This document shows, piece after piece, positions 8,355 through 36,564 of a DNA stretch of 64,000 bases. A program made the translations under genes and the position numbers. The notes beneath the pieces were generated by a model. That model did not search any database, was not told where the DNA came from, and saw nothing but the letters and a program-made list of their open reading frames with translations. Each line of letters begins with the position of its first letter. Position 1 is the first letter of the stretch. This DNA is from Candidatus Aenigmatarchaeota archaeon. GTDB taxonomy: Archaea > Aenigmatarchaeota > Aenigmatarchaeia > CG10238-14 > SpSt-28. The stretch lies in contig JAWBAK010000001.1 in the NCBI GenBank assembly GCA_038997165.1, positions 472,917 to 536,916 of the forward strand, given 5' to 3'.

Positions 8355-12599
<4,245 letters not shown>

Positions 12600-12628
<29 letters not shown>

Positions 12629-17280: not shown

Positions 17281-18835
<1,555 letters not shown>

Positions 18836-18902
18836 ATTTCAAAAATTCTCAAAATTAATAAAAAATTCGAATTCTAAAAATAAATTATAGGTTAGATTAT
18901 AA

Positions 18903-18988
18903 GCGGGGGTCGCCTAGCCTGGCCAAGGGCGCTGGGTTGAGGTCCCAGTGGCTTAGTGCCTTCGTGGGTTCAAATCCCACCCCCCGCA
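18903..18988 (+). tRNA. tRNA-Leu(GAG)
   Basis: GCGGGGG/CCCCCGC acceptor, CTGGG-TT-GAG-GT-CCCAG, long variable arm, discriminator A. Confidence 0.95.
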
Positions 18989-19021: not shown

Positions 19022-19741
19022 ATGGGCTATTTAGAAATAATTATATCATCAACAATATTTTTAATGTTATTGGTAACAGCTTTTCTTTTCTTGAATTATA
19101 GATTTCAAGAATATAAATATATAAATTCAGAAATTTTTTATAAAGAACTTTTGCTTTCATATTTTGATAGGCTAATATATTCTAATCCAAACGTTTATAA
19201 AGATTTGGTTATTAAAATTTTTGAAATTAATATTAGCGAAAGTGATAATCAAGTTATTTATATAAATTTCAATGTTAGTTGTGAAAAGAAAATAAATGTA
19301 ACATCTATAAGAATTTATAATTCTAATTTTTCTGAATTAGCATTTAAAATAAAAGATTATGATGTTTGTAGCGATAATAGTTTATATAGAGCTAATATAT
19401 CAATTTTTTTACAAAATTTTTCTAACAAAGAAATTTTATATGTTTTTATGTCATCTAGTTATGGAAATCCAATATTATATGATTTTGAAGAAAATTATAA
19501 AAATGCAAGTTATAAATATATAGGCACTATTACTTTAAAGGGTTTAGATCTTTTTACTTTTGAAAATATTGTAGAAGAATATTGTAAAAATAGAGGAGAA
19601 GTCGAGATAGAGGTTTTTGAAAATGAAAATATAATTATGAGTTGTAAAAAAAACAAAGCTGGAAATGTTTTTTCTTTTAATATGCCTATTTTATCGATTA
19701 ATGGAAAAAAACTAAATATAATTTTTAGAATTTTTGAATAA
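19022..19741 (+). CDS. Membrane-anchored pilin-like/accessory surface protein
   Basis: N-terminal MG|YLEIIIS hydrophobic helix with E near +3; Asn-rich ectodomain. Confidence 0.5.
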   Translation: MGYLEIIISSTIFLMLLVTAFLFLNYRFQEYKYINSEIFYKELLLSYFDRLIYSNPNVYKDLVIKIFEINISESDNQVIYINFNVSCEKKINVTSIRIYNSNFSELAFKIKDYDVCSDNSLYRANISIFLQNFSNKEILYVFMSSSYGNPILYDFEENYKNASYKYIGTITLKGLDLFTFENIVEEYCKNRGEVEIEVFENENIIMSCKKNKAGNVFSFNMPILSINGKKLNIIFRIFE

Positions 19742-19742
19742 A

Positions 19743-20129
19743 ATGGAAAAATTTTTAGAATTGGCAATTTCTTTTACTATTTTATTATCTTTTATTTTTG
19801 TTTTTCTTTTTTATTCTTCCAATTTATATTTAGAAGATGATGAAATAATAAAAGTTAAAATTTATAATGTTTTAAACTCTTATAATCTTGAAATAAGAAG
19901 CTATGCGTTTTTAGGAAAAACAACTGAAATAGAAAATATTTTAAAAAATGAACTTCCAAAAATTTATGATTTTAAAGTTTTGATTTGTTATGAAAAAAAT
20001 TATGATGAATGCTTTAAAAATATAAAGTTTAATGCAAATAACGTTTTTTCTGTAAGTTATTTTTTTTCATCTAACTTTACTAACTATGAAAATATTGAAT
20101 TAATAATATATGCTTGGAAAAAAATTTAA
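19743..20129 (+). CDS. Membrane-anchored pilin-like/accessory protein (ATG 19743)
   Basis: MEK|FLELAISFTILL N-terminal hydrophobic segment; co-operonic. Confidence 0.5.
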   Translation: MEKFLELAISFTILLSFIFVFLFYSSNLYLEDDEIIKVKIYNVLNSYNLEIRSYAFLGKTTEIENILKNELPKIYDFKVLICYEKNYDECFKNIKFNANNVFSVSYFFSSNFTNYENIELIIYAWKKI

Positions 20130-20670
20130 ATCACAATTTTTTATAATTGCAACAGGAATATTTATATTAATTTTTAGTGTTAACTTTTTTTATTTTGGAT
20201 ATTTAAGTAAAAAAACTAATTATCCAAGCAATTTAATAATTTTAAGAACTATCGATAATTATCTAACAGAAGCAAACCTTCTTTTGGAAAATGAAAAAAT
20301 TTCAGAATTTTTTAGTTTTTCAGAATTTTTTATTAATACTTCTAAAAAAAGAAATTTTATTATAGAAGTTTTGTTTTCAAATATTAGTTTAGATTCTTCT
20401 CAAAAAAAGATTAATTTTGAAATATATCTTTTTTCTGAAAGAGAATATTTTTTAAATATTTCTTCTGATATAGATTTCTTAGCTTTTAATTTAGAGCCAA
20501 GAATTTTAAAAAATATAAATATTAGTTTTGAAAATTCTCAATTAATTAATATAACTATTTTTAATTCATCTTTTTTTATAGTAAATTGTGAATCAAATTG
20601 CAAATTTTTAATTTCTATGGGTTATAAAGATGATATAAAAATAATTAAATCTTTGCTTTTGAAAAGCTAA
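20110..20670 (+). CDS. Pilin-like protein with class III-type signal peptide
   Basis: MLGKKFKS|QFFIIATGIFIL (K-S|Q-F pattern). Confidence 0.6.
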   Translation: MLGKKFKSQFFIIATGIFILIFSVNFFYFGYLSKKTNYPSNLIILRTIDNYLTEANLLLENEKISEFFSFSEFFINTSKKRNFIIEVLFSNISLDSSQKKINFEIYLFSEREYFLNISSDIDFLAFNLEPRILKNINISFENSQLINITIFNSSFFIVNCESNCKFLISMGYKDDIKIIKSLLLKS

Positions 20671-20687
20671 AGAGTAATTTTATATTT

Positions 20688-21152
20688 ATGAAATTATTAT
20701 CGGAATTTGTTTCGAAAGTTTTGATTTTTCTTATTTCTATTATAGCTATTTCTATAGCTTTACTTTTTTTAAATCCTATAATAGATAGGAATTTAAATTC
20801 TATTTCAATTCAAGAAGCCATTTCTAATATGAAAAAAATTGAAGCTATAAGTAAAGAAGTTTTAAGCGAAGCAATAGGATCTCAGAGAGTTTTAGAGATT
20901 AGAATTTATAGAGGTATTTTATATGTTAATAATAGTTCAATCGTTTATATTCTAGAATCAGATAATATTCCTTTAGAAGATTTTACTAAAAAAGATGGAA
21001 ATTTATTTATTAAAAAAATTGGTAATACTTTTTCTATAACTTTAAATTTTGAATATGCAAATATTGTTGGCAATGTTTATTTATCTAGTGGAAATCATAG
21101 AATATGTATTCTTAAAGATGCTGAGCTAACAATAAAAGTTTATGTTTGTTAA
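20688..21152 (+). CDS. Pilin-like protein
   Basis: MKL|LSEFVSKVLIFLISIIAI; GSQR...G.L.V and C-terminal G.H.I.I.K pattern shared with the next gene. Confidence 0.6.
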   Translation: MKLLSEFVSKVLIFLISIIAISIALLFLNPIIDRNLNSISIQEAISNMKKIEAISKEVLSEAIGSQRVLEIRIYRGILYVNNSSIVYILESDNIPLEDFTKKDGNLFIKKIGNTFSITLNFEYANIVGNVYLSSGNHRICILKDAELTIKVYVC

Positions 21153-21160
21153 AATTTTTT

Positions 21161-22027
21161 ATGAGATTAATATCTAATACAATATCTCTTTCTATTTATA
21201 TAATTTTATCACTTTTTTTAATATCTTTTTTTTTATCTATTACTTTTAAAGAATTAATTGAAAAATCTAGAATAAGTAGCACTTTTTTACAAGTAATAGA
21301 ACAATTAAGATTTTTAGATGCTACAATTTTATATTTAAACAGTTTAGATATAGGTTCAAAAACAAGTATAAAGATTTATATTCCAGAAGGAAGATTATTA
21401 GTTAAAGATGGTAAAATATTTTATGAATTAGAAACTGTTTCAACTTTTGAATTTCTTAAAAATATTGTAAGATCTTTTAAAAATTTGGCATTAATATTTA
21501 GAAATGTTAGTATAAAATGTGAAATTAGAGAAAATAATTGTTTAGAAAGCGAGGAATGCATTTTTTCTATGTATAAATTAAATAATTCTCATATAGCAGA
21601 TTGCAATTCTTTAAATTATCCTTATAAAATTTGTTGTAAAGATTTAGAAATTAGAAAAGCTGAGACTTGTTATGAAAAAGAGTCTGAAATTCTTAGAATT
21701 TTAAAAGATGAAAACTCTCATGCAGGTTTTAATAAATATTCCTTTAGAATTTGCTCATATCCAATAATTTTATGTTCTTTAAAGAATAAATGTAGCAATA
21801 ATGAAATTTGTGTAGCGTCTTTTTATAAAGATTTTAATTCTCATGCAGCTGTATGTAATTATTATCCAAATAATCTTTGTTGTTATTCTTCTATTTCAGA
21901 AATAGGTAAAATAATTCTAAGTTATTTAGATATAGAAATTATTGGTAATTTTGTAATTTCTAAAGGAGAATATACCTTAGTAATAGAAAAAATCGATTTT
22001 AATAAAATAAAAATTTATGTATTATGA
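21161..22027 (+). CDS. Pilin-like protein with three Cys/NSH repeats (ATG 21161)
   Basis: MRL|ISNTISLSIYII; three repeats C..xE...NSH...Y...(I/L)C. Confidence 0.6.
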   Translation: MRLISNTISLSIYIILSLFLISFFLSITFKELIEKSRISSTFLQVIEQLRFLDATILYLNSLDIGSKTSIKIYIPEGRLLVKDGKIFYELETVSTFEFLKNIVRSFKNLALIFRNVSIKCEIRENNCLESEECIFSMYKLNNSHIADCNSLNYPYKICCKDLEIRKAETCYEKESEILRILKDENSHAGFNKYSFRICSYPIILCSLKNKCSNNEICVASFYKDFNSHAAVCNYYPNNLCCYSSISEIGKIILSYLDIEIIGNFVISKGEYTLVIEKIDFNKIKIYVL

Positions 22028-22497
22028 AGTTAATATCTGCTTATATAGCAACAATTATAATAGTTTTAGTAACTCTTACTATTGGATTTTTTGTTTATAC
22101 TTGGTATTTTCAATTTTTTCAAAGAACTGGTGAAGAAATTGAAAGGATTGAAGAAAAACGAATTTCTTGCCAATTTGGTTCATTTATAGTTTTAACAGAA
22201 ACTCTAAATTGTACTTTTGAATTTTTAAATTTTTCTTTAAAAAACAATGGTTACATAGATTTATATAATTTGAAAGTTGTTGTTTTTGATGGAATAAAGA
22301 TGCATACATTAGATGTTTATGATGAAAATGGAAATATTGCTGATATTAATAATCCATTAAAGCCTAATACTGTTAACAATTATTATGTTAATATTTCTGG
22401 AATTTCTAAAATTTTAAGTTTAGAGTTTTTAACTCAATGTGCTAATGTAAATATAAAGATTAAAGACTTAAATATATCATGTACACAGAAAGAATAA
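22024..22497 (+). CDS. Archaeal type IV pilin-like protein
   Basis: MKL|ISAYIATIIIVLVTLTIG; KNNG..DL and L.P motifs typical of archaeal pilin heads. Confidence 0.7.
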   Translation: MKLISAYIATIIIVLVTLTIGFFVYTWYFQFFQRTGEEIERIEEKRISCQFGSFIVLTETLNCTFEFLNFSLKNNGYIDLYNLKVVVFDGIKMHTLDVYDENGNIADINNPLKPNTVNNYYVNISGISKILSLEFLTQCANVNIKIKDLNISCTQKE

Positions 22498-23093
22498 AAA
22501 CAATTAGTAGGGGAATAATATTAATAATTTTAGGTATTATAATAGGTATATATCCTTTTCAAATAGTTGGAAATTTTTTAGAGGTTGAAAGTATTAGGGC
22601 AAATACTAAAAAATTTTATGAGTTATTAATACCAAATTCTATTGTTAGTGTTGAAAGTGTAAAAAAGGAGGGAGAAATGTATAAAGTTTTAGTTAAGTTG
22701 ATTTTAAATAATAATGTTAATTATATTGAAGCGTGGGTATCTAAAGATTCAAATATTTTAGTTGAAGGTGTAATATACTTAAAAGATTCTATTAAAACTT
22801 TAGAAAAATATAAGAAATTTGTAGAATGTTTAAATAATAAAGGAGTAAAGATATATGGTTTATTAGATTCTCAAAATTATCCTGATGCTGCATTATTAAC
22901 TTCTAGACAACTAAATTTATTGGGAAGATATTCTTATTTAATTTTTGTTAGTTGCGATGGTGATATGATGCAAGCATGTATAAATTCTGGAATAACACAA
23001 TTTCCAGCAGTAGTTTATAATGATAAAGTTTATTTTGGAGTTGGAGATATTGATTGGTTTTCTAATTTAACTGGATGTAAATTTATTGATTAA
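22479..23093 (+). CDS. Membrane-anchored thioredoxin-fold-like protein lacking CxxC
   Basis: CLNNKGVKIYG...Q..LLG...VSC...C...I..FP...LTGC pattern; no CxxC at the expected site. Confidence 0.6.
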   Translation: MYTERIKTISRGIILIILGIIIGIYPFQIVGNFLEVESIRANTKKFYELLIPNSIVSVESVKKEGEMYKVLVKLILNNNVNYIEAWVSKDSNILVEGVIYLKDSIKTLEKYKKFVECLNNKGVKIYGLLDSQNYPDAALLTSRQLNLLGRYSYLIFVSCDGDMMQACINSGITQFPAVVYNDKVYFGVGDIDWFSNLTGCKFID

Positions 23094-23130
23094 AAATAAA
23101 TTTAATTTATTGTTTAATTAAATTTTATTT

Positions 23131-23901
23131 ATGTTAGAAAGAATATTATTAGTATTTTTAATTTTTATTTCAACTTTTTTTATTGCTATCTCTTATGATT
23201 GTCCATTACAATCCCATCCTTTATCCGAAATTTGTCCTATAGATGTTAATTTAAATATGAGAGGATTTAATATAACAAATGTTGGAGAAATTATTGTTAG
23301 TGGAAGAATTGTTGCATCGATTTTATGTATTGGTAATGATTGTAAATCTTCATGGCCTAGTATAGTTGAATCGGATCCATTTTGGTCTTTTAATATTAGT
23401 AGAATAAATATAGGATATTTAATTAAAAGAGGTGAATCTGGAATTTTTCAATCAATAATTTATGAAAAAAATGGTAAAATAGGTATTGGAACTGAAAATC
23501 CACAAGATACACTTGAAGTTATTGGTAATATAACTGCTAGTGGGATTATTAGAGCAAATAAAATATGTGTAGGAGAAAATTGTAGCGATATTCTTGGAAA
23601 CTTAAGTGGTCATGGTATAAAAAATACAATTGCTTATTGGTCTAGTGAAAATACTTTAGAATCAACTCCATTTTATGTTAATAGTAATTTTGACCTTAAT
23701 TTATCTTGGAAAAGTATTTTTAATGTTCTTTGGCTTAATTCAACTTATATATATTCTTCGGATTTGATTTATTCTTCTGGAAAAGTTGGAATATCTACAT
23801 ATCCGGAATATTCGTTAGATGTTATAGGTAATATTAGAGTTAGAATAGGATCAACTGTTTTTACTATTGAGAATACTGGAGATGTTTTAGTAGCACTATG
23901 A
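23131..23901 (+). CDS. Secreted fibre-like beta-repeat protein
   Basis: Signal peptide; GKIGIGT..P...LEV.G repeats; CIGNDC..WP motif. Confidence 0.7.
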   Translation: MLERILLVFLIFISTFFIAISYDCPLQSHPLSEICPIDVNLNMRGFNITNVGEIIVSGRIVASILCIGNDCKSSWPSIVESDPFWSFNISRINIGYLIKRGESGIFQSIIYEKNGKIGIGTENPQDTLEVIGNITASGIIRANKICVGENCSDILGNLSGHGIKNTIAYWSSENTLESTPFYVNSNFDLNLSWKSIFNVLWLNSTYIYSSDLIYSSGKVGISTYPEYSLDVIGNIRVRIGSTVFTIENTGDVLVAL

Positions 23902-25748
23902 ATAAAAAATATATATTTAATTTAAAGTATTATATTATGAAGATTAATATAGGTTTATCTCACATATTTTTAATCTTTTTAATGACTTTACTTTTTAACA
24001 CATCTTTTTCTCAAGGAAATTTTATAATAAGAAATAAAACAGATATAAACATAGTATATTTTATAGTTAACGGAACTACTGGTAGAGTTGGTATAGGATT
24101 AATAAATCCTCAATATAAATTAGATGTTAGCGGTGATGTTAGAGTTAGTGGTAACTTATTTGTAACTAGTGGAATTAATATTGGAGGTGATTTAAGTATA
24201 GGAGGAAATATAGTAATAACTTCAGGAAGAGTAGTACAAAATATAGCTAGTGTTGGAACTAATTTAATTCCTTCTAGTGATAATTCTTATGATTTAGGTA
24301 ATTCAACTCATAGATGGAGAGCTGTTTATGCAAGTGGATATTATATTGGCGCTACTCAAATAATTGATAGTTCAAGAAATATAATAAATGTTAATTGGGT
24401 TAATGCAACTAATATAAACGCAACTCAATCAATAAGAGCAAGTATTATTTATCAAGGAAACAATCAAGTTATAGATACGATAAGTGCAAATGCACCAATT
24501 ACTGTAAGTAGAAGTGGAAGTTCAGTAACTATTGGACTACAAGCAAGTGGAGTAACAGCAGGAACTTATGGATCTGCATCACAAGTACCTCAAATTCAAG
24601 TTGATGCATATGGAAGAATAACTTCTGCAAGCAATGTTAACATTGCTATTGATGCTAGCCAAATTGTTTCTGGAATAATTTCTTCTGCGAGATTAGATAG
24701 TAATATAGCTTGGTTAAATAGAACTCAAACATGGACAGCCCCTCAAACATTTAATGAAAACGTATGGTTTAATAAAAATGTTTTTATAGTCGGCAATATT
24801 TCTTATGTTAATGTTCAAAATTTAAACGTTAATGGAAGTTTCGTTCCAATAGCTACCGGAGTTTTTAGTTTAGGAAGTCCAGAATACAAGTGGAAAGATA
24901 TATATGGAATAAATATATATGGAGATAATGTTTATTCTGGAGGTAATTTGGTATTAACAAACGTAACCAATTTTGCTAATTCAGCAGATAGTGACATTAC
25001 AGTTAGTGGAACTTATAATAGCCTTAATTTACAAATAAGAGCTGGAGCTGTTGGAACAAATGAATTAGCTCAAATTTCTTGTCCTCCAAATCAGGTATTA
25101 GCTTCGATTGGTGGAGGTAGTTATACTTGTGTTGATGTAAATCCAGCAAATGTTATTAATGGTACTGGTCAGCCAGGACAAATAGCTTATTTTTCATCTA
25201 CTAATACATTAAGCGGAAGTAATCAGTTATTTTTGGATACTACGAATTGGAGAGTTGGTATAGGAACTACTTCACCAGTTAGAAAATTAGATGTGGTTGG
25301 AGATATTAATGCAACTCAAGCAATTTATTCAAGCCAAGGATATTATGTTGGCACAACTCAAATAATAACTTCTGGAAGAGTATTACAAAATATAGCTAAT
25401 GTTGGAACCCATTTAATTCCTTCTAGTGATAATGCTTTTGATTTAGGTAGTTTAACTAATAGATGGAGATGGGTTAATGCAACTAATATAAATGCAACTC
25501 AATCAATAAGAGCTTCTCAAATTTGTATAGGAAATGATTGTAGAAGTGCATGGCCAACTTTAGTAGAAACTGATCCATATTGGAATTCAAATATAACTGC
25601 TATTTCAGCTAATTATTTAATTAAAAGAAGTCCAACCGGTATAGCTCAATCGATAATTTACGATGATGGAGCTAAAGTAGGAATTGGAACAAATTCTCCA
25701 GCTGGTTTATTGCATATTAGAGGAGGAGATATAATAATAGAAGTGTAA
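23898..25748 (+). CDS. Secreted tail-fibre-like beta-repeat protein A (likely start ATG 23937)
   Basis: Signal peptide; VGIGT..P..KLDV.G, P..DN.YDLG....RW and GVTAGTYG...VDAYGRITSA motifs typical of phage-fibre-like proteins. Confidence 0.75.
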   Translation: MNKKYIFNLKYYIMKINIGLSHIFLIFLMTLLFNTSFSQGNFIIRNKTDINIVYFIVNGTTGRVGIGLINPQYKLDVSGDVRVSGNLFVTSGINIGGDLSIGGNIVITSGRVVQNIASVGTNLIPSSDNSYDLGNSTHRWRAVYASGYYIGATQIIDSSRNIINVNWVNATNINATQSIRASIIYQGNNQVIDTISANAPITVSRSGSSVTIGLQASGVTAGTYGSASQVPQIQVDAYGRITSASNVNIAIDASQIVSGIISSARLDSNIAWLNRTQTWTAPQTFNENVWFNKNVFIVGNISYVNVQNLNVNGSFVPIATGVFSLGSPEYKWKDIYGINIYGDNVYSGGNLVLTNVTNFANSADSDITVSGTYNSLNLQIRAGAVGTNELAQISCPPNQVLASIGGGSYTCVDVNPANVINGTGQPGQIAYFSSTNTLSGSNQLFLDTTNWRVGIGTTSPVRKLDVVGDINATQAIYSSQGYYVGTTQIITSGRVLQNIANVGTHLIPSSDNAFDLGSLTNRWRWVNATNINATQSIRASQICIGNDCRSAWPTLVETDPYWNSNITAISANYLIKRSPTGIAQSIIYDDGAKVGIGTNSPAGLLHIRGGDIIIEV

Positions 25749-26110
25749 ATAAATAAAATATAAGTTTAAAATTAAAAAATATTAAAAAGAAAAGATATTT
25801 TATGAAAACAAAAAATTTTTATATTGTTTTGTTTTTGATATTTATTTTTATTAATATTTATAAACTAGACTTGGTTAGTTCTCAAGTATATAAAGATTTT
25901 ATAATTAGAAATATTTCTAATACTTCTACTGTTTATTTTATAGTTAACGGAACTACTGGTAGAGTTGGTATAGGATTAATAAATCCTCAATATAAATTAG
26001 ATGTTAGCGGTGATGTTAGAGTTAGTGGTAACTTATTTGTAACTAGTGGAATTAATATTGGAGGTGATTTAAGTATAGGAGGAAATATAGTAATAACTTC
26101 AGGAAGAGTA
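24057..26110 (+). repeat. Module P: 177-bp identical direct repeat (24057-24233 = 25934-26110)
   Basis: Base-by-base comparison by eye, constant offset 1877. Confidence 0.9.
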
Positions 26111-27239
26111 TTGCAAAATATAGCTAGTGTTGGAACCCATTTAATTCCTTCTAGTGATAATGCTTTTGATTTAGGTAGTTTAACTAATAGATGGAGATGG
26201 GTTAATGCAACTAATATAAATGCAACTCAATCAATAAGAGCTTCTCAAATTTGTATAGGAAATGATTGTAGAAGTGCATGGCCAACTTTAGTAGAAACTG
26301 ATCCATATTGGAATTCAAATATAACTGCTATTTCAGCTAATTATTTAATTAAAAGAAGTCCAACCGGTATAGCTCAATCGATAATTTACGATACAGGAAC
26401 AAATGTTGGAATTGGAACAACTTCACCAAGCTATAAATTAGATGTAGTTGGAGATATAAGAAGTACAGGAAGTGTGATAACTTCAATTGTAAAAGCAGAG
26501 GCTCCTTATACTTACGTGGGACAGGCAGATAATCTATTAGGAGTGGCTAGACTTATGCCTAATGCTTTCGGTTTTAATCCACCTTATAAAGTTGAAGAAT
26601 ATAACCCAGGAAGTGGTACGTGGAACGACATAACCCAAAATTACACTTGGGGATATATCACAGATTTAAGGGGAACAGAAGTGGCAATTCCATTGGCAGC
26701 TAATGTAGATAAGACTATTAGATTTTACTTTAATATAGGAGGCTGGAGTGGGGGAGATCTAACTGCCATTGTATTATATGCAAGATGGATAAACAGCCTA
26801 AAACAAGTAAAGGTTGAATCTTCGACAACTTCAGATTTCTCAAGTGGAGTAACCACAAGATTAGATTGGAACGGAAATATAGGACATTGGGATGAGGTAA
26901 CTCTTTGGCGCTTGACAAGTAGAACTGGCGGTGATACTTATATTAGAGTCACTTTCACTTTTATGAGAACAAGTGATGGAGAAATAAGGATAAGGGAGCT
27001 AATGGGATTAAGTTATGCGGCTGTCGGTAGAATATTTGAAGGATATGTTCCATATAGTTGGGATCACAATAAAAATGTTTTCTTTTTGGGTAATGTTGGA
27101 ATAGGAACTACTTCACCAGTTAGAAAATTAGATGTAGTTGGAGATATTAATGCAACTCAAGCAATTTATTCAAGCCAAGGATATTATGTTGGCACCTATC
27201 AAATAATAACTTCTGGAAGAGTATTACAAAATATAGCTA
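25260..27239 (+). repeat. Module R: ~139-bp near-identical repeat (25260-25398 ~ 27101-27239, 4 mismatches seen)
   Basis: Constant offset 1841. Confidence 0.88.
25400..26392 (+). repeat. Module S: 265-bp identical direct repeat (25400-25664 = 26128-26392)
   Basis: Constant offset 728. Confidence 0.9.
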
Positions 27240-28453
27240 GTGTTGGAACTAATTTAATTCCTTCTAGTGATAATTCTTATGATTTAGGTAATTCAACTCA
27301 TAGATGGAGAGCTGTTTATGCAAGTGGATATTATATTGGCGCTACTCAAATAATTGATAGTAATAGAAATTTGGTTAATATTAATCAAATTATTGCTGAT
27401 GGTCCAATGAACATAGATAGTGGAACTTTATATGTAGATTCGGCTAATGATAGAGTTGGAATTGGAACGGCAAGTCCAACAGCAAAACTAGACGTAAGAG
27501 GAAATATTATTCTTATTTCTCCCGATAGTGGAATATATGCATATGAAATGAGAAGAACAGATGAGGATAATAATTTACATTGGTGGAGAATATGGCATAT
27601 GAACAATAATTATAGAAAGAATGCACTAGAAATTTGGGAGTATTTAGCTAATACCTCTTATGATTCAAACCCGTGTAATAATAATCCTGGAGATATATGC
27701 GCTCCTCGAATTATTATTACTAGTGGAGGTAACGTTGGAATAGGAGGTATAGTTCCAAGCTATAGATTAGATGTAGCAGGAGATATAAGAGGTCAAAATA
27801 ATTTGTATGTTTCTGGAAATGTTGGTATTGGAACAACAAATCCACAAGGAAAATTACATGTTTATGATGGAACAAAAGAGTTGATGAAAGTTGTTAATGA
27901 TGCTGATGTTAGTGGTATTGTTGTTGGTAGTGCTGAGGGGGGAAGACATTTAATAATTAATGATGTTCCTCAAGCACGATGGGCTTTAGCTACTGGTGAT
28001 TATGATTTGTCTTTTCAGAATGATTATGGTGGAATATGGAATACAAGAATGATAATTACTGAAAGTGGTAATGTTGGTATAGGAACTACAGCACCTAATA
28101 CGTTACTTCATCTTTACAAAACTGATGGAGTTGAATTAAGAACGGAGAGTGATTGGAATTATGCAATTTTTAGAGTAAAAGTTGGTAGTAATATGGGATG
28201 GTTTGGACGAGGTATTGGATGGAGTGGAATAGGATTATATAATGATCAAGGAGGAGGTATTTTATATCTTGCAGATATAACAGGCAATGTTGGTATTGGG
28301 ACTCTTTCTCCATCAGAAAAATTACATGTTATGGGAAATATAAGAACTTCTGGAAATATAACTATTGAAGGTAATTTTATAAAGGATTCTTCCAATATAA
28401 ACAGAATCCAGTTTGATGCTATAAATAGAAATGTAATAATTTGGGTTGGTTAA
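25802..28453 (+). CDS. Secreted tail-fibre-like beta-repeat protein B with inserted globular domains
   Basis: Signal peptide; eight G(N/R)VGIG-type repeats separated by unique Trp-rich inserts. Confidence 0.75.
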   Translation: MKTKNFYIVLFLIFIFINIYKLDLVSSQVYKDFIIRNISNTSTVYFIVNGTTGRVGIGLINPQYKLDVSGDVRVSGNLFVTSGINIGGDLSIGGNIVITSGRVLQNIASVGTHLIPSSDNAFDLGSLTNRWRWVNATNINATQSIRASQICIGNDCRSAWPTLVETDPYWNSNITAISANYLIKRSPTGIAQSIIYDTGTNVGIGTTSPSYKLDVVGDIRSTGSVITSIVKAEAPYTYVGQADNLLGVARLMPNAFGFNPPYKVEEYNPGSGTWNDITQNYTWGYITDLRGTEVAIPLAANVDKTIRFYFNIGGWSGGDLTAIVLYARWINSLKQVKVESSTTSDFSSGVTTRLDWNGNIGHWDEVTLWRLTSRTGGDTYIRVTFTFMRTSDGEIRIRELMGLSYAAVGRIFEGYVPYSWDHNKNVFFLGNVGIGTTSPVRKLDVVGDINATQAIYSSQGYYVGTYQIITSGRVLQNIASVGTNLIPSSDNSYDLGNSTHRWRAVYASGYYIGATQIIDSNRNLVNINQIIADGPMNIDSGTLYVDSANDRVGIGTASPTAKLDVRGNIILISPDSGIYAYEMRRTDEDNNLHWWRIWHMNNNYRKNALEIWEYLANTSYDSNPCNNNPGDICAPRIIITSGGNVGIGGIVPSYRLDVAGDIRGQNNLYVSGNVGIGTTNPQGKLHVYDGTKELMKVVNDADVSGIVVGSAEGGRHLIINDVPQARWALATGDYDLSFQNDYGGIWNTRMIITESGNVGIGTTAPNTLLHLYKTDGVELRTESDWNYAIFRVKVGSNMGWFGRGIGWSGIGLYNDQGGGILYLADITGNVGIGTLSPSEKLHVMGNIRTSGNITIEGNFIKDSSNINRIQFDAINRNVIIWVG

Positions 28454-29726
28454 AATGTTAGGTAAAAAATTTATTATTATAATAGTTATTTTTGCGACTT
28501 TTTCATTAGTATATTTAAATTTATTTACAACATCTATCGAATCTTTTTTACTAATAAAAAATGATAATAAAAAAATTTTAAATGAAAAAATAAATAGTAA
28601 TTTAAGTTATTTTCAGGATTTAAAAACTATTGTTTTTTCAGATTTAGATCCAATATTTTGTAATATTAATTTTAATCCTCCATGGTTTGTTGTATATAAT
28701 AATGATGGTGGCTACTTAATTATTATAAGTTCGGAAGGAAATTTATTCATTAATACAACTTCTAATCTTATTATAACATCTTCTGTTAGACAAACTGGAT
28801 GGCTAAATGCATTTATTTTAAGAAATTCTTCTCATATTCTTTTTGCAGCTAATAGAACTCACACTCAAATTTATGGTGGATTTGTAGAAAATGTAAATCC
28901 AATACCAACTACAAATAGTTTTGTAGTGAGAAATCTTTCTAATAATGTTGTTTTAGCTATTTTTAATTCTTCAGATGGAAAATTTTATTTAAGAGGAAAA
29001 GCAGTATATACTGGAAGTCAAGCTGGATGTCCCTCTGATGGTTGGTATTGTTCAGGAGATATTCGTGAATATAGAGATTATTATTGTTATGCTCCTTCTG
29101 GTTCTTGTAGATATACTGTAACTCAATCTGAAAATTGTAATAATTATGATGTTTGTCTTAATTATGGAAATAATGCGGGCTGTGGCTCAGATCCCACTGC
29201 AGAAAAAAGAGATTATTATTGTTCTAATGGTGCTTGTGTATATACTTATTCTAGTGTAAATTGTGATAGCTATGATATTTGTACAAATGTATGTGGTGGT
29301 GACAATAAGATATATTCTTATAAAGATTATTATGTCTCTTCTTCTTGTACTTGTACTTATTCTTTAGGATCCTTAGTAGAAGATTGTACAACAAAAGCAT
29401 CTACTGATACAGATGGAGGAGATGCTCCATTTACTCAAGGAACTGTAACAGATTATGTAGGTTGTAGTGGAACAAGCTCAACTTGTAATGTTTATAATAC
29501 TTATACGGATTATTGTTCTAGTAGTACAACTTTAGTAGAATATTATCCGAGCGGTAGTAGTTATGGAAGTAAAACGTATGATTGCTCTGTATTTTGGACT
29601 TGTGATATTTGTTATGGGCAACAAGGTTTGCGATATGCTTGTTATGCATGTATTACAGGAAAATGTGCTGGTGGATGTAGTAATTCACCAGTTTCTGGTT
29701 ATACGTGTATAAATTGTGTAATATAA
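28446..29726 (+). CDS. Membrane-anchored/secreted Cys-rich surface protein (likely ATG 28455)
   Basis: N-terminal TM; F(I/V)(L/V)RN beta repeats; C-terminal half with repeated RDYYC...C.Y and DTDGGD motif. Confidence 0.65.
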   Translation: MVKMLGKKFIIIIVIFATFSLVYLNLFTTSIESFLLIKNDNKKILNEKINSNLSYFQDLKTIVFSDLDPIFCNINFNPPWFVVYNNDGGYLIIISSEGNLFINTTSNLIITSSVRQTGWLNAFILRNSSHILFAANRTHTQIYGGFVENVNPIPTTNSFVVRNLSNNVVLAIFNSSDGKFYLRGKAVYTGSQAGCPSDGWYCSGDIREYRDYYCYAPSGSCRYTVTQSENCNNYDVCLNYGNNAGCGSDPTAEKRDYYCSNGACVYTYSSVNCDSYDICTNVCGGDNKIYSYKDYYVSSSCTCTYSLGSLVEDCTTKASTDTDGGDAPFTQGTVTDYVGCSGTSSTCNVYNTYTDYCSSSTTLVEYYPSGSSYGSKTYDCSVFWTCDICYGQQGLRYACYACITGKCAGGCSNSPVSGYTCINCVI

Positions 29727-30289: not shown

Positions 30290-30686
30290 CAAGCCAAATA
30301 GAAGCAAACTTATCAGAAATGAAAAACTTAGATAATGATTTATCAAAAATTGCTTTATTGCTAGTAAAAACAAGTAAAGAAAATATCAAGCAATTCAAAA
30401 CTTTATGCTAATAAATGATAGCACAACAATGACATACGAAATATCAGTTTATTTATTAAACGATGATATTAAATATTTTAAAAAACAAAGAATTTACTTT
30501 TTTGAAAATTATAGAACACCGATTACTGGACACATAGATATTTTACAGATAAGAAATGGTTTAATTCACATTTTAGATTATAAGCCAAATGCTGAAAAAG
30601 TAAATGCAATTAATCAATTAACAATTTACGCTTTGGCCTTAGCAAGCAGAACAAAACTTGCCGTTAAAGATTTTAAATGTGCTTGA
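30290..30686 (+). pseudogene. PD-(D/E)XK nuclease family remnant
   Basis: TGHIDILQIRNGLIHILDYKP...QLTIYALAL motif; upstream coding signal in another frame; ends abruptly at CA-TGA. Confidence 0.65.
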
Positions 30687-30881: not shown

Positions 30882-32159
30882 TTAATCTTGTTTTAACAAC
30901 CATTTCCATAAAGGTATGCATTTAATTTTTTTGTTTTCAAAATTTAACTCATCTTCATAATCCCAAGTAATTATTAATAAATCTTCGCATTTTAATAATT
31001 CACTTGCTTTAATTAATGCCCTTATTTCTCTTTTTTCTATTTCATCTTTATTAGATGCATATGTTACTTGAATTAATTGCTTAATCTTTAACCCTTCTTT
31101 AATTACAAAATCTACTTCATACTCATTAGTTTTAAAATAATATATTTTGCTTAGTGGTCTATAGTTCGTGCTTCTGAGTAATTCTAAGTAAACTGTATTT
31201 TCCATCTTTTTTCCAAAATCTTTTTCAAATCTAACTAAATTAGATAAACCTAAATCACAAATATAAATTTTGTTTGGCCAGCTTTTTCTTTCATATAAAC
31301 TTTTTCTAAATTTTTCTACACAAAAGCAAAAAAATATATCGGAAATTTTATCGAAATAATTATAAATAGTCGATTTTGTTTCAACTTTTAGGTTTGAAGT
31401 TACATAGTTAGCTATTTTCCTTATACTAATCTCTTTTGAAAAATTTTGAAGAATAAATTCAAAAATTAAAGATGCCACATTTATACTTTTTATACCAAAC
31501 CTTTCAACAAAATCTCTATAGAAAATTAAATCGAAATATTCTTTAAGAAGTTTTTCTTTTTTCTCAAAAAATAATACAACTTCTGGATATCCACCCCATT
31601 CTAAGAATTCTTCTAAAAGTTTCTTTATTTTTATTTCCTCATCTAGAGAAATAAATTGCTTTATTTGTATTTCTTTAAACTTTAAAAATTCTCTAAAGCT
31701 TAATGGTAATAAAATATAGCTTAGGCTTCTTCCTCTAAGTTGCGTTGCAATTTCCTTAGAAAGCAGTTTTGAAGAAGAACCTGAAATAAAAACATAATAT
31801 CCCATATCAAGTAGTGATCGAACTAAGGATTCCCAACTATTAATTACTTGAATTTCATCCAAAAAAATATTTTTAACCTTTTCATTAAAATAATTTTCAT
31901 AAATTCTCACTATTTTTAAAATTTCTTCTGGAGTAACATTTCTGAATGCAATATTTTCAAAATCGAAATAAATACTTTCACTTTCCTTAGAAAATAGTTT
32001 AAGTAAGAAATATGATTTTCCAGCTCTTCTTGGTCCAATTATGCTTATTACTTTATTTTTTATCTTTTCTACTTTTAACTCTCTTTCTATAATTTTTTCT
32101 TTTTCTATCCTTTCTTTAATAGATTTAAAGAATTCTATTACTAGTTTTTCATCAAACAT
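30882..32159 (-). CDS. AAA+ ATPase (AAA_14 + DUF4143 type)
   Basis: GPRRAGKS Walker A, FLDEIQ Walker B, SGSSS, LRGR, GGYPE, KIYICDLG, MENTV, EVDFV. Confidence 0.9.
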   Translation of the reverse strand: MFDEKLVIEFFKSIKERIEKEKIIERELKVEKIKNKVISIIGPRRAGKSYFLLKLFSKESESIYFDFENIAFRNVTPEEILKIVRIYENYFNEKVKNIFLDEIQVINSWESLVRSLLDMGYYVFISGSSSKLLSKEIATQLRGRSLSYILLPLSFREFLKFKEIQIKQFISLDEEIKIKKLLEEFLEWGGYPEVVLFFEKKEKLLKEYFDLIFYRDFVERFGIKSINVASLIFEFILQNFSKEISIRKIANYVTSNLKVETKSTIYNYFDKISDIFFCFCVEKFRKSLYERKSWPNKIYICDLGLSNLVRFEKDFGKKMENTVYLELLRSTNYRPLSKIYYFKTNEYEVDFVIKEGLKIKQLIQVTYASNKDEIEKREIRALIKASELLKCEDLLIITWDYEDELNFENKKIKCIPLWKWLLKQD

Positions 32160-36378: not shown

Positions 36379-36461
36379 TAATGCCTAATATTTTAATTTT
36401 TTTAATCTAAATCTTAAAGTAAAGATTAAAGATGTATGTATGGGCTTTATAAAAACTAGAA

Positions 36462-36554: not shown

Positions 36555-36564
36555 TTAAACCTTT

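What the first reader, a model, noticed from the sequence alone, without database searches (positions are those of the whole stretch)
19022..29726. Candidate undescribed appendage locus: minor-pilin-like cluster + redox-inactive thioredoxin fold + phage-fibre-like secreted proteins
Seen: 11 co-directional, mostly overlapping or closely spaced genes right after tRNA-Leu, all with N-terminal export or anchor signals and many N-x-S/T sequons. There are six pilin-like genes, one thioredoxin-like gene, three fibre-like genes and one Cys-rich gene. No capsid, terminase or portal genes are present, so this is not a provirus. Known: type IV pili carry tip adhesins, as with PilV of the R64 shufflon. 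Inference: a type IV pilus tip or baseplate complex displaying variable fibre adhesins. The assembly ATPase, TadC and peptidase are not in this window.
Basis: inference. Interest (0 to 1): 0.75.

Follow-up and report, generated by a model that had tools for sequence, protein, structure and literature searches.

The report
Pilin, fibre and thioredoxin-like adhesion island
A tiny hot-spring archaeon that probably lives attached to other cells keeps genes for pilus-type proteins, phage-tail-fibre-like surface fibres and an inactive thioredoxin-like membrane protein side by side, as do many of its relatives, so this is probably its kit for gripping a host cell.

Summary
After 16S rRNA and tRNA-Leu lie 11 co-directional, tightly packed genes (19022-29726), each with an N-terminal hydrophobic segment.

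- g2, g3, g4 and g6, and the N-terminus of g5, are type IV pilin-like. Orthologues in relatives carry canonical class III signal peptides, and in five relatives the cluster lies within a few kb of one particular ATPase plus two-platform-gene machine.
- g7 has a thioredoxin fold without CxxC in all 16 sequences examined.
- g8-g10 resemble phage tail fibres and the Bdellovibrio MAT surface fibres.
- g11 is Cys-rich and has only hypothetical relatives.
- There are no virus genes, and the flanks are housekeeping genes.

New here: fibres of this lineage share an invariant mature N-terminal motif (QSHPLS.I.PID..L.M...N.TN). Only g8 carries it in this window. g9 and g10 are mosaic paralogues.

Not shown: that the fibres sit on a pilus tip. 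The co-folding tool never ran, and no pilin-fibre fusion was found. My best reading is a co-inherited host-adhesion island.

I rate it a new variant of known kinds, of moderate to high interest. The scan had already noted the g9/g10 module shuffling.

The parts
18903..18988 (+). tRNA-Leu(GAG), the left border of the locus. It follows the 16S rRNA gene at 17316-18794.
   Evidence: ARAGORN and Rfam. The same eIF6 - 16S - tRNA-Leu - g1 context occurs in two same-genus genomes. No repeat of the tRNA of 12 nt or more lies downstream of g11.
19022..19741 (+). g1, 239 aa. An N-terminally anchored protein and first gene of the conserved g1-g2-g3-g4 block. Orthologues in other families are 350-433 aa and two of them carry a Laminin_G_3 lectin domain.
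   Evidence: 81-97% identical in two same-genus genomes and 29% over 126 aa to L047 (E 1e-4). Laminin_G_3 in L047 and L048 orthologues. No class III motif.
19734..20129 (+). g2, 131 aa, a small pilin-like protein. Orthologues begin MKG-x-YYTIEA.
   Evidence: blastp to orthologues in L041, L045, L047, L048 (E 3e-7 to 1e-5) and L068 (E 2e-7). N-termini read. No family model hit.
20110..20670 (+). g3, 186 aa, pilin-like. Its N-terminus reads ..KFKS|QFFIIATGIF. The gene in the same position in relatives begins MKGQ(V/I/M)F.
   Evidence: Profile-profile comparison with the positional orthologues is weak: probability 29%, E 5.9e-4, aligned in register from the N-terminus.
20688..21152 (+). g4, 154 aa, pilin-like (MKL|LSEFVS..). 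It corresponds to the N-terminal pilin domain of 490-611 aa orthologues (MKG|LSPLVS..) that add a Laminin_G_3 lectin domain.
   Evidence: Alignment A4. 6 of 11 A4 members hit Pfam DUF7289, best E 1.7e-7. Laminin_G_3 in orthologues. NCBIfam ComGD E 0.026, far below cut-off. The AF2 model has helix 2-59 then beta strands, pLDDT 62.
21146..22027 (+). g5, 293 aa. A pilin-like N-terminus (MR|LISNTIS..) fused to a Cys-rich domain with three NSH repeats (14 Cys). In other families the Cys-rich domain sits behind a Sec-type signal peptide and is joined to CARDB or Ig domains.
   Evidence: The Atlas structure match of residues 117-255 to a Minisyncoccota hypothetical-protein cluster has TM 0.80 by query. 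Sequence relatives are hypothetical proteins only.
22024..22497 (+). g6, 157 aa, a UpsA-like type IV pilin (MKL|ISAYIATIIIVLV). It is a paralogue of the pilin beside machinery locus B.
   Evidence: NCBIfam UpsA E 6.3e-6, 26.4 bits, cut-off 130. The family is multi-copy in 36 of 41 genomes, including G000 C1:163310 next to ATPase/TadC.
22479..23093 (+). g7, 204 aa. A membrane-anchored protein: TM helix, three-stranded beta sheet, linker helix, then a thioredoxin-like domain with four conserved Cys but no CxxC.
   Evidence: Alignment of 16 sequences with invariant C117, C159, C167, C200 and no CxxC. Profile against PDB: 3kp8 E 7.3e-5. AF2 pLDDT 87.6, pTM 0.75. Foldseek 3kp8 E 2.6e-4, TM by target 0.78.
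23131..23901 (+). g8, 256 aa, a short fibre-like protein. It is the only one in this window that carries the lineage-wide N-terminal module (signal peptide, then ..QSHPLSEICPIDVNLNM..NITN).
   Evidence: PHROG tail protein E 1.6e-4. The A5 profile finds 206 representative clusters.
23898..25748 (+). g9, 616 aa, a Sec-signal fibre-like protein and mosaic paralogue of g10.
   Evidence: PHROG tail fibre family 5.5e-7. Module map against g10. DNA repeats.
25802..28453 (+). g10, 883 aa, a Sec-signal fibre-like protein with six VGIGT..P...L.V units and a non-repetitive insert at about residues 225-420.
   Evidence: PHROG tail fibre 6.2e-29. tblastn to phage tail fibre genes at 24-35% identity. PDB 8ond Bd2133 E 3.5e-6. 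Motif count.
28446..29726 (+). g11, 426 aa, a Cys-rich (28 Cys) secreted or anchored protein that overlaps the end of g10 by 8 nt.
   Evidence: Relatives lie near fibre genes in L046 and L066. In another MAG the locus tags of the g11 homologue P0002 and the fibre P0047 are consecutive. No family found.
25363..25662 (+). 300-nt direct repeat in g9, 99% identical to 26091-26390 in g10. Further shared blocks: 24054-24333 / 25931-26210 (95%) and 25254-25482 / 27095-27323 (93%).
   Evidence: the repeat finder. Contigs of other hot-spring metagenomes join 24395 to 26198 and 25364 to 26198, at these repeat borders.

Best explanation
This is a native chromosomal host-adhesion island of a small Aenigmatarchaeota (DPANN) archaeon. 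It has two cooperating halves.

**Half 1, g1-g6.** This is the accessory ('minor') pilin set plus one UpsA-like pilin of a type IV filament. The filament is built by the B-type machine (ATPase plus two platform genes and one pilin), which lies 330 kb away on the same contig. The pilin-like proteins enter the membrane by their N-terminal helices and prime or cap the filament. In other families the g4 and g1 orthologues carry lectin (LamG) domains, so there the cap itself would be the adhesin. In this genus those domains are missing.

**Half 2, g7-g11.** g8, g9 and g10 are Sec-exported surface fibres. They are related to phage tail fibres and to the Bdellovibrio MAT fibres, and they probably bind host surface structures with variable distal parts that are reshuffled by recombination between repeats. 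The fibres are held at the cell by the invariant N-terminal module, carried here by g8. The best candidate holder or assembly helper is g7, the redox-inactive thioredoxin-fold membrane protein that is the fibre gene's most constant neighbour.

**Shown:** the gene classes, native origin, conserved linkage, N-terminal motif and mosaicism.

**Inferred:** which machine serves the pilins, the adhesion function, the docking of fibres to g7, trimer formation, and any contact between filament and fibres.
For: **Pilin half.**
- g6 matches UpsA (E 6e-6, below cut-off).
- g4-family members hit DUF7289 in 6 of 11.
- Orthologues of g2, g3 and g4 begin with canonical class III signals: MKG.YYTIEA, MKGQ.F, MKGLSPLV.
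- The genome has 5 T2SSE ATPases and 7 T2SSF matches, forming three ATPase + 2xTadC loci. Loci A and C have their own pilin-like genes; locus B has a single pilin.
- The B-type ATPase lies 2.3 kb from g7 in G009 and G011 and about 4 kb from g7 in L068. In L081 a B-like ATPase with two likely platform genes lies about 3 kb from g7. In G023 the B-type machine is contiguous with the pilin block: ATPase-TadC-TadC, then pilin, pilin, g4, g3, g2, g1, X, g5, then g7 and a fibre.

**Fibre half.**
- PHROG tail fibre families, g10 at 6e-29.
- Phage tail fibre genes by tblastn.
- PDB Bd2133, a MAT fibre, E 3.5e-6.
- The MAT paper describes surface fibres with a conserved domain right after the signal peptide, variable tips, and an unidentified surface anchor.

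**N-terminal module.**
- 13-14 invariant residues in 10-11 fibres that are otherwise 26-68% identical.
- 206 representative clusters, nearly all matching at the protein N-terminus, with lengths 64-4412 aa.

**Linkage.**
- Of 23 non-self genomes with the module in a phylum sample of 150, 12 have it within 3.2 kb of g7.
- Of 15 order-level g7 loci, 10 have fibre genes, 11 have g5-like genes and 10 have pilin-like genes.
- Of 13 distant-family loci, 10 have fibre-like genes.

**Native origin.** GC3 equals background, the flanks are the same in same-genus genomes, and there is no att-like repeat.

**Mosaicism.**. The distal cassette differs within the genus: G005 and L056 carry another large secreted protein instead of g9-g11.
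Against: - In this genome the locus is 330 kb from machine B. The link to B rests on five relatives.
- The signal peptides of g4, g5 and g6 read K/R-L|(L/I)S, not K-G|. g2 and g1 are more degenerate. Non-Gly residues at that place are, however, common in this genus's other pilin-like genes.
- The only prepilin-peptidase match is below Pfam's cut-off (23.6 against 26.5 bits).
- No pilin family model reaches its curated cut-off for any of g1-g6.
- The g4 model is low confidence and found no pilin in the PDB.
- g3 orthology is weak.
- g7 also occurs without the QSHPLS module: 23 of 38 non-self g7-positive genomes had no module hit at E<=1e-6, although 10 of 13 such distant loci still hold fibre-like genes. 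Eight genomes have the module but no g7 hit.
- g9 and g10 lack the module, so how they would be anchored is open.
- No expression data exist.
- Kin are not independent, so the linkage counts overstate the support.
Confidence: 0.55

Rival explanations
1. There is one physical appendage: the pilin-like proteins form the tip or base complex of a type IV filament, and the fibres g8-g10 are mounted on it, so the pilus presents exchangeable fibre adhesins.
For: - Pilin-like and fibre genes are co-inherited from genus to class level.
- In this genus the lectin domains of the g4 and g1 orthologues are missing while fibres are present, as if the fibres took over the adhesin role.
- The fibres have no C-terminal anchor and an invariant N-terminal docking-type module.
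- The MAT paper itself raises a possible interplay of such fibres with type IV pili (passage seen).
Against: - The fibres use Sec-type signal peptides, not class III ones.
- No pilin-fibre fusion was found in five large pilin-N-terminus proteins examined, and no longer fused form of g7 was found (weak evidence).
- The fibre gene's nearest constant neighbour is g7, not a pilin gene.
- Some loci have g7 with fibre genes but no pilin-like genes within the stretch (L044, L046, L050, L056, L066, L069, L075, L079, L080).
- No contact was tested.
Confidence: 0.2
2. The genes are neighbours without a common task. An accessory pilin operon and a set of independent surface or secreted fibre proteins happen to share a variable chromosomal spot next to a tRNA gene, and g7 serves only one of them or neither.
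For: - In G012, G080 and G028 the fibre gene with the module lies on another contig or far from g7.
- L040, L070 and L071 show g7 alone.
- Surface-protein genes often gather in variable regions (general knowledge).
- The distal cassette differs even within the genus.
Against: - The linkage of g7 with fibre, g5-like and pilin-like genes persists across families f1, f2, f3, f5, f6, f9, f14 and f16, in genomes of 0.5-1.2 Mb, and in different gene orders and orientations.
- The module lies within 3.2 kb of g7 in 12 of 15 genomes that have both, where the chance expectation is about 1% per gene pair.
- The gene junctions overlap across the g6/g7 border.
Confidence: 0.15
3. This is a secretion device. 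The pilin-like proteins form a short pseudopilus, as in bacterial type II secretion, that pushes the folded fibres and Cys-rich proteins through the S-layer. g7 acts as a substrate holder.
For: - The set consists of several small pilin-like proteins in fixed order plus secreted cargo genes next to them.
- The fibres lack any anchor of their own.
- PMC13705601 remarks that accessory proteins may prime the cell wall for passage of filaments (passage).
Against: - No archaeal type II-like secretion is known to me (recalled, not searched).
- The cargo already has Sec signal peptides, and there is a single membrane to cross.
- In relatives the pilin-like proteins carry lectin domains. That fits adhesion, not a piston.
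- Ordinary pilins with TIGR02537 N-termini end the operon in G023.
Confidence: 0.07
4. This is a decayed provirus or tailocin remnant integrated at tRNA-Leu, of which only the tail fibre genes survive.
For: The position is next to a tRNA gene. g8-g10 hit phage tail fibre families.
Against: - There are no other virus families in the 11 genes or the flanks.
- No repeat of the tRNA lies at the far end.
- GC3 is native.
- The context is the same in same-genus genomes.
- The fibre family has 206 representative clusters, and all the named ones are from Aenigmatarchaeota chromosomal contigs.
- No relatives were found in viral contigs for g7 or g8.
Confidence: 0.03

Closest known systems
Archaeal type IV filament 'system 1' (Epd-like pili of Methanococcus maripaludis and relatives) with accessory or minor pilins encoded partly in separate loci. 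Source: PMC13705601, passages and section 11 read. For PMC3875500 I saw the abstract start only.
   Same: - An ATPase with two platform genes (three such loci in this genome).
- Several small class III-type proteins in an operon.
- Pilins away from the machine. The paper says this scattering is typical of DPANN (Nanobdellati).
- Lectin or adhesin domains on some pilin-like proteins in relatives.
   Different: - I did not run the paper's MacSyFinder/arCOG models, so assignment to system 1 rests on the two-platform-gene criterion alone.
- None of g1-g6 reaches a curated family cut-off.
- The constant company of a thioredoxin-like protein, a Cys-rich NSH-repeat protein and tail-fibre-like genes is not mentioned in that paper: 0 occurrences of 'thioredoxin', 'tail fib', 'LamG' and 'Aenigm' in the main text. 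I did not open its supplementary tables S4 and S5 or Fig S10.
MAT (mosaic adhesive trimer) fibres of the predatory bacterium Bdellovibrio bacteriovorus. Source: PMC10769870, abstract and passages read. PDB 8ond (Bd2133) and 8ojn.
   Same: - They are cellular, not viral, surface fibres related to phage tail fibres.
- They have a signal peptide followed directly by a conserved N-terminal domain thought to bind an unidentified surface element.
- They have variable, swappable distal parts.
- They are used by a cell that must recognise another cell.
- g10 matches Bd2133 (E 3.5e-6) through the G-N-V-G-I-G-T..P...L.V beta-helix units.
- g8-g10 showed no S74 chaperone domain (Pfam, E up to 1), like the 'NS74' subgroup.
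   Different: - This is the archaeal domain, with one membrane.
- The N-terminal module here is a short invariant motif, and I did not compare it with the ~130-aa MAT domain.
- Trimer formation, surface location and ligand are untested here.
- Here the fibre genes are tied to pilin-like genes and to g7. The passages I read report no such linkage for MAT genes.
Phage tail fibres and tailspikes (PHROG 9942, 3269, 18345, 7121; fibres with the endosialidase-type S74 chaperone)
   Same: Repeat units and stretches of g8-g10 match these families.
   Different: There is no phage context, no S74 domain over threshold and no relatives in the viral contig collection for g8.
Bacterial type IV pilus minor-pilin priming or tip complex with the PilY1 adhesin, and type II secretion pseudopilins (recalled knowledge; cited as references 45, 46 and 60 inside PMC13705601, seen)
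   Same: An operon of several distinct small pilin-like proteins in fixed order next to a large adhesin. The proposed role is priming assembly and presenting an adhesin.
   Different: No sequence relation was shown apart from a chance-level ComGD score for g4 (E 0.026). The large partner here is a Sec-exported fibre, not a PilY1-type beta-propeller.
Thioredoxin-like domain fused to bacterial VKOR (Synechococcus, PDB 3kp8/3kp9), and the DsbC/DsbG architecture
   Same: - Fold match: Foldseek E 2.6e-4, TM by target 0.78; profile E 7.3e-5.
- A Cys pair of g7 (C159, C167) aligns with a Cys pair of 3kp8.
- The overall order beta domain - linker helix - thioredoxin domain weakly resembles DsbC/DsbG (probability 0.35-0.51).
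   Different: There is no CxxC in 16 of 16 family members. No VKOR gene was found in this genome (completeness 94.5%). g7 therefore cannot work as a classical thiol-disulfide oxidoreductase.
R64 shufflon PilV tip adhesin
   Same: The idea of a type IV pilus with exchangeable adhesin ends.
   Different: There are no invertible segments and no Pfam family reached its cut-off in the 11 locus proteins, so no recombinase was detected. The variable parts are whole separate Sec-exported fibre genes that recombine through direct repeats.
Type IV pili of Saccharibacteria (CPR) that drive episymbiosis (PMC9894109, PMC11623550; search listing and abstract starts only)
   Same: An ultrasmall episymbiont that uses type IV pili and their minor pilins to find and bind its host.
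   Different: Bacterial machinery. No fibre or thioredoxin-like partners appear in what I saw.

Membership tests
Archaeal type IV pilin-like proteins (class III signal peptide proteins) | A short charged leader, a cleavage site [KR]-[GAS] and about 20 hydrophobic residues at the N-terminus. | tested here: inconclusive
   g3 reads K-S|QFFIIATGIF. g4, g5 and g6 read K/R-L|(L/I)S. g2 reads MNKMEK-FLELAIS and g1 reads MG-YLEIII. Orthologues in other families are canonical: MKG|LSPLV, MKG|Q.F, MKG|.YYTIEA. Leu, Ile, Phe, Asn or Ala at position -1 is common in this genus's other pilin-like genes.
Archaeal type IV pilin-like proteins (class III signal peptide proteins) | A match to a curated pilin family model. 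| tested here: not met
   g6 UpsA scores 26.4 bits against a cut-off of 130. g4 ComGD scores 14.9 against 70. No Pfam family is over cut-off for g1-g6. Indirect support: 6 of 11 g4-family members hit DUF7289 (best E 1.7e-7), and the pilins ending the orthologous operon in G023 pass TIGR02537 (32.6 and 30.1 bits, cut-off 20).
Archaeal type IV pilin-like proteins (class III signal peptide proteins) | The pilin fold: a long N-terminal helix packed on a beta sheet. | tested here: inconclusive
   The g4 AF2 model has helix 2-59 followed by eight beta strands, but mean pLDDT is 62 and pTM 0.51. Foldseek found no match at E<=0.001.
Archaeal type IV filament system (machine present) | [quoted passage not shown] | tested here: met
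   T2SSE: 5 matches over cut-off. T2SSF: 7 over cut-off, in three ATPase + 2xTadC loci. The peptidase is the weak point: one A24 match of 23.6 bits against a cut-off of 26.5. Its open frame contains a G-L-G-D motif (reading this as the catalytic motif is recalled knowledge).
Archaeal type IV filament system (machine present) | Genetic linkage of the pilin-like genes with the machine. | tested here: inconclusive
   Not met in this genome: 330 kb lie between locus B and g1. Met in five relatives for the B-type machine: G009 and G011 at 2.3 kb, L068 at about 4 kb, L081 at about 3 kb, and G023, where the machine is contiguous with the pilin block.
Thioredoxin superfamily | The thioredoxin fold. 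| tested here: met
   g7 residues 124-198 of the AF2 model (pLDDT 87.6). Foldseek 3kp8 E 2.6e-4, probability 1.00, TM by target 0.78. Profile hit to 3kp8 at E 7.3e-5.
Thioredoxin superfamily | The CxxC (or CxxS) redox motif at the start of helix 1. | tested here: not met
   Absent in 16 of 16 aligned family members. The four conserved Cys lie elsewhere.
MAT / phage tail-fibre-like fibres | Sequence relation to fibre beta-helix repeats. | tested here: met
   g10 hits phrog_9942 at 6.2e-29 and g9 hits phrog_7121 at 5.5e-7 (tail fibre families). g8 hits phrog_3269 (tail protein) at 1.6e-4. PDB Bd2133 at 3.5e-6. Phage tail fibre genes match by tblastn.
MAT / phage tail-fibre-like fibres | A signal peptide followed directly by a conserved N-terminal domain, with variable distal parts. 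| tested here: met
   for g8 and the relatives' fibres. g9 and g10 have signal peptides but lack the module. Homology of this module to the MAT N-terminal domain was not tested.
MAT / phage tail-fibre-like fibres | An intertwined homotrimer. | not tested
MAT / phage tail-fibre-like fibres | A C-terminal S74 chaperone-protease (S74 subgroup only). | tested here: not met
   No Peptidase_S74 match up to E 1 for g8-g10. The tblastn overlap with genes annotated 'chaperone of endosialidase' lies in the repeat region.
Provirus or tailocin | Capsid, portal, terminase, sheath or baseplate genes, plus att repeats. | tested here: not met
Shufflon-type variable pilus adhesin | Invertible segments bounded by inverted repeats, plus a site-specific recombinase. 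| tested here: not met
   Inverted pairs are only 20-37 nt at 70-85% in AT-rich DNA. No Pfam family reached its cut-off in the 11 locus proteins, so no recombinase was detected.

The most novel reading that the evidence does not exclude
A hybrid appendage. A type IV filament of a DPANN archaeon has a cap of g1-g5-type pilin-like proteins that carries phage-tail-fibre-like (MAT-like) trimers. The fibres dock through their invariant QSHPLS...PID...NITN N-terminus, with the redox-dead thioredoxin-fold protein g7 as loader or adaptor. The symbiont would then fish for its host with exchangeable fibre heads on a retractable line. This would also name, for the first time, the kind of surface element that MAT-type fibres attach to.
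Probability: 0.2. Interest if true: 0.85.

Novelty: new variant of a known kind. Interest (0 to 1): 0.6.

Why it matters
How DPANN archaea recognise and hold their hosts is largely unknown, and Aenigmatarchaeota have no cultured member that I know of (recalled).

This locus gives a concrete, lineage-wide candidate kit:
- an accessory pilin set tied to one of three type IV machines;
- a family of at least 206 sequence clusters of fibre proteins with a diagnostic N-terminal motif and freely varying lengths (64-4412 aa);
- a new redox-inactive thioredoxin-fold membrane protein that travels with them.

The parallel with the Bdellovibrio MAT fibres suggests that cells from both domains that live on other cells recruited phage-type fibres for prey or host recognition.

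The motif and the g7 family are simple markers for finding such loci in metagenomes. The fibre repertoire could serve to predict host range. The g7-fibre pair gives a testable answer to the open question of what anchors such fibres.

Tried and rejected
Nothing was folded, so fibre-g7 contact is untested.
- **Pfam, NCBIfam and PHROGs on the 11 proteins:** nothing over a curated cut-off. PHROGs hit only g7 (one unknown-function family, E 0.0065) and g8-g10.
- **g4:** Foldseek against the PDB gave no match at E<=0.001. The A4 profile against PDB sequences gave only chance-level rows.
- **g3 against its positional orthologues:** hhalign probability 29%.
- **Viral-contig scans** with g7 (A1) and g8 found no relatives.
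I repeated it with the 8-row A2.
- **Homologue searches:** g11 and the g5 Cys domain found only hypothetical proteins. A search for longer, fused forms of g7 found none (weak evidence).
- **Rosetta-stone look** at three large pilin-N-terminus proteins of relatives and two of this genome: no fibre repeats. One carries a LamG domain instead.
- **No RNA holder listed** among public runs, so nothing can be said on expression.
- **Read laying** used only contigs of four hot-spring metagenomes. I use only two joints at repeat borders and draw nothing from depth or uncovered parts.
- **No att-like repeat** of the tRNA.
- **No VKOR gene**.
- **Rejected readings:** provirus or tailocin remnant, shufflon, and classical Dsb-type oxidoreductase for g7. 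Reasons are given in the rival explanations and membership tests.
- **Literature:** searches found no description of this gene combination. PMC11329633 mentions tail-fibre-like 'antennae' on the host cell, not on the DPANN cell.

Full report
**1. What is there**

The window belongs to a 652-kb, 4-contig genome (94.5% complete, about 24% GC). Its relatives and nearest protein clusters are all Candidatus Aenigmatarchaeota, a DPANN lineage. Public runs that hold the stretch are hot-spring metagenomes.

A 16S rRNA gene (17316-18794) and tRNA-Leu(GAG) (18903-18988) precede the locus. Seven junctions overlap by 4-20 nt and three have gaps of 17-53 nt. Every product has a hydrophobic segment at its N-terminus and none further on.

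The flanks are housekeeping genes: ribosomal proteins, RNA polymerase and eIF6 upstream; AAA_14/DUF4143 ATPases, an AlaX-like protein and EF-2 downstream. Third-position GC of the 11 genes equals that of their neighbours. Two same-genus genomes have the same eIF6 - 16S - tRNA-Leu - g1 context, and there is no att-like repeat. The locus is therefore native, not an integrated element.

Sequons are twice the genome average. They are close to what the N/S/T-rich composition predicts: 62 observed against about 51 expected. An AglB gene exists.

**2. The pilin-like half (g1-g6)**

No curated model passes its cut-off. The best scores are g6 against the UpsA pilin (E 6.3e-6) and g4 against ComGD (E 0.026). 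The case rests on relatives.

g1-g7 are colinear and 66-97% identical in two same-genus genomes. In other genera and families the same families appear in a fixed order:
- a g5-like gene (Sec signal, Cys-rich NSH repeats, plus CARDB or Ig domains);
- X, a 590-830 aa Ig-domain protein that is absent here;
- g1-like (N-terminal anchor, with Laminin_G_3 in two of four);
- g2-like (about 130 aa, beginning MKG.YYTIEA);
- g3-like (about 200 aa, beginning MKGQ.F);
- g4-like (490-611 aa, beginning MKGLSPLV, with DUF7289 and Laminin_G_3).

Alignment A4 shows that g4 is the pilin domain of these longer proteins. Six of its 11 members hit DUF7289. The link of g3 to its positional orthologues is weak (hhalign probability 29%).

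In this genus the residue before the hydrophobic helix is Leu in g4, g5 and g6, rather than Gly. The genus's other pilin-like genes show G, A, L, I, F or N at that place. I read this as a lineage habit rather than decay, but cleavage is unproven. The only prepilin-peptidase match is below cut-off.

The g4 model has the expected topology of a long helix followed by beta strands, at low confidence. It found no structural neighbour.

**3. Which machine**

The genome has three loci of one T2SSE ATPase plus two T2SSF platform genes. PMC13705601 gives this arrangement as the mark of archaeal 'system 1' (Epd-like) filaments. It says the arrangement occurs in DPANN, where pilins are typically scattered.

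Loci A and C bring their own pilin-like genes. Locus B has a single pilin (MKGISPLIATI..), of which g6 is a paralogue.

The B-type ATPase is 53% identical between genera, against 40% and 37% for the other two types. It lies 2.3 kb from g7 in G009 and G011 and about 4 kb from g7 in L068. In L081 a B-like ATPase (47% identical) lies about 3 kb from g7, followed by two likely platform genes.

In G023 the B-type machine is contiguous with the pilin block: ATPase-TadC-TadC, then on the other strand two TIGR02537-type pilins, g4, g3, g2, g1, X and g5, then g7 and a fibre gene. That is the basis for assigning g1-g6 to machine B. In this genome the two are 330 kb apart.

**4. g7**

Sixteen family members share four Cys and no CxxC. 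The profile hits the thioredoxin-like domain of the Synechococcus VKOR homologue (E 7.3e-5), with one Cys pair aligned.

The AF2 model is confident (pLDDT 87.6). It shows a TM helix, a three-stranded sheet, a linker helix and a thioredoxin-like domain. Foldseek puts 3kp8 first (TM by target 0.78) and gives DsbG and DsbC as weak whole-length matches.

The family was found only in Aenigmatarchaeota: 39 of 151 genomes of a phylum sample, and all 17 genome-contig loci.

**5. The fibres**

g8-g10 hit phage tail and tail-fibre families, g10 at 6.2e-29. They also match phage tail fibre genes by tblastn at 24-35% identity.

Against solved structures, g10 matches Bd2133 of Bdellovibrio (8ond, E 3.5e-6). 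Bd2133 is a member of the MAT superfamily. According to PMC10769870, MAT proteins are surface-displayed trimeric fibres of a predatory bacterium. They have a conserved domain right after the signal peptide, swappable tips, and an unidentified anchor on the cell.

The archaeal fibres repeat that plan. Relatives' fibres have a Sec-type signal peptide and then an invariant motif, QSHPLS.I.PID..L.M...N(I/L)TN: 14 invariant residues in 10 sequences, and 13 in 11. A profile of the N-terminus finds 206 representative clusters, of which 83 score E<=1e-10. Almost all match at the protein N-terminus, in proteins of 64 to 4412 aa. The named ones are all from Aenigmatarchaeota, and one is already labelled 'tail fiber domain-containing protein'.

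In this window only g8 (256 aa) carries the module. g9 and g10 have their own signal peptides but not the module.

g9 and g10 share blocks of 300 nt (99%), 280 nt (95%) and 229 nt (93%) in a different order. Contigs from other hot-spring metagenomes join g9 to g10 at these repeat borders (contig evidence, to be read with care).

Within the genus the distal cassette differs. G005 and L056 have one fibre followed by a different large secreted protein in place of g9-g11.

g11 (28 Cys) has only hypothetical relatives. Its relatives lie beside fibre genes in L046 and L066, and in one MAG where the locus tags are consecutive.

**6. Linkage**

*Order level.* I fetched 15 loci around full-length g7 homologues. 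I left out 3 genomes with only partial, C-terminal-half matches. Pilin-like genes occur in 10 of the 15, g5-like in 11, fibre genes in 10, and both pilin-like and fibre genes in 7. Two loci show nothing more; one of these is a 5.9-kb contig.

*genome contigs.* This added 8 new loci, two of them near-duplicates of each other. Four have fibre genes, three have g5-like or X genes, one has g1-g4 plus machine B, and two have nothing.

*Phylum sample of 150 genomes.* The fibre N-module is found in 23 non-self genomes. In 12 of them it lies within 3.2 kb of g7, in 3 g7 is elsewhere, and in 8 no g7 was found.

*Distant families.* In 13 g7 loci from families f5, f9, f14, f16 and f20, fibre-like genes occur in 10, pilins or pilin-like genes in 7-8, g5-like genes in 6, and both fibre and pilin-like genes in 6.

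Gene order and orientation differ between families while the company stays the same. That is what one expects of a selected functional unit. Relatives are not independent samples, so I give no statistics.

**7. Reading**

The composition and the conserved company are shown. The function is inferred from several things: the lectin and Ig domains in relatives, the relation to phage and MAT fibres, the episymbiotic lifestyle assumed for DPANN, and the parallel with type IV pili in Saccharibacteria (abstract starts only). I read it as attachment to a host cell.

I favour the second for three reasons. The fibres are Sec substrates, g7 is their closest constant neighbour, and no pilin-fibre fusion was found. 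The margin is modest, and the co-folding test could not be run.

**8. Novelty**

In the main-text passages I read of PMC13705601 and in four searches I found no description of this combination, of the g7 family, or of the fibre N-terminal motif. The one Aenigmarchaeota genomics paper I checked mentions type IV pili in a single general sentence (PMC8407114).

Each component belongs to a known kind. What is new is the archaeal MAT-like fibre family with its motif, the inactive thioredoxin-fold partner, and their class-wide linkage to an accessory pilin operon. I did not open the supplements of PMC13705601 (tables S4 and S5, Fig S10). They may already list some of these pilin genes.

Noticed in passing
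window 8351-12628 (+): A single 1425-aa ORF carries RNA polymerase Rpb2 domains 4-7 followed by Rpb1 domains 1-5, which is a B'-A' fusion.
   Followed up: partly
window 17316-18988: The 16S rRNA gene is followed by tRNA-Leu and then protein genes. There is no 23S gene in the window, so the rRNA genes appear to be unlinked.
   Followed up: no
window 2970-3070 (-) and 36461-36555 (-): Rfam finds a 101-nt tRNA at 2970-3070 that ARAGORN does not report. ARAGORN calls the 95-nt tRNA at 36461-36555 with an undetermined anticodon. Both may contain introns.
   Followed up: no
G000 C1:48.7-57.1 kb and C1:429.7-435.7 kb (outside the window): Two further ATPase + 2xTadC loci have their own pilin-like genes. 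Their N-termini read K-[I/L/F/N]|Q...(E/D), so the position before the presumed cleavage site is not Gly. The only A24 peptidase match is below cut-off. Together this hints at a peptidase with unusual specificity.
   Followed up: partly
L053 5706-8825 (G023 contig C7): The B-type ATPase ORF is 1039 aa, about twice the usual length. It aligns to the G000 ATPase in two pieces (59% over 347 aa and 50% over 149 aa). This suggests an insertion, possibly an intein.
   Followed up: no
window 24395/26198 and 25364/26198: Contigs of other hot-spring metagenomes (runs X6 and X2) join g9 directly to g10 at the borders of shared repeats. These are hybrid fibre genes in other populations. The evidence is from contigs only.
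   Followed up: partly
L038 5040-9173 and L056 2492-4078: Same-genus relatives carry a different large secreted protein (1377 aa with 19 Cys, and 528 aa) with the same N-terminus, in the place of g9-g11. The cassette distal to the first fibre gene is replaceable.
   Followed up: partly
window 30405-30686 (+), 30882-32159 (-), 32582-33262 (-): Downstream of the locus lie a conserved 93-aa ORF of unknown function (also present in G005 and L056) and two AAA_14/DUF4143 ATPase paralogues, one of them truncated.
   Followed up: no
G000 C1:151968-152924 and L088 911-2380: Elsewhere in this genome and in a same-genus relative there are pilin-N-terminus proteins joined to, or next to, a LamG-type lectin domain. 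Lectin pilins therefore persist in the genus outside this locus.
   Followed up: partly
window 21146-22027, residues 117-255 of g5: The Cys-rich NSH-repeat domain has its best structural match (TM 0.80 by query) in a cluster of hypothetical proteins from Minisyncoccota (CPR bacteria), another group of episymbionts.
   Followed up: no
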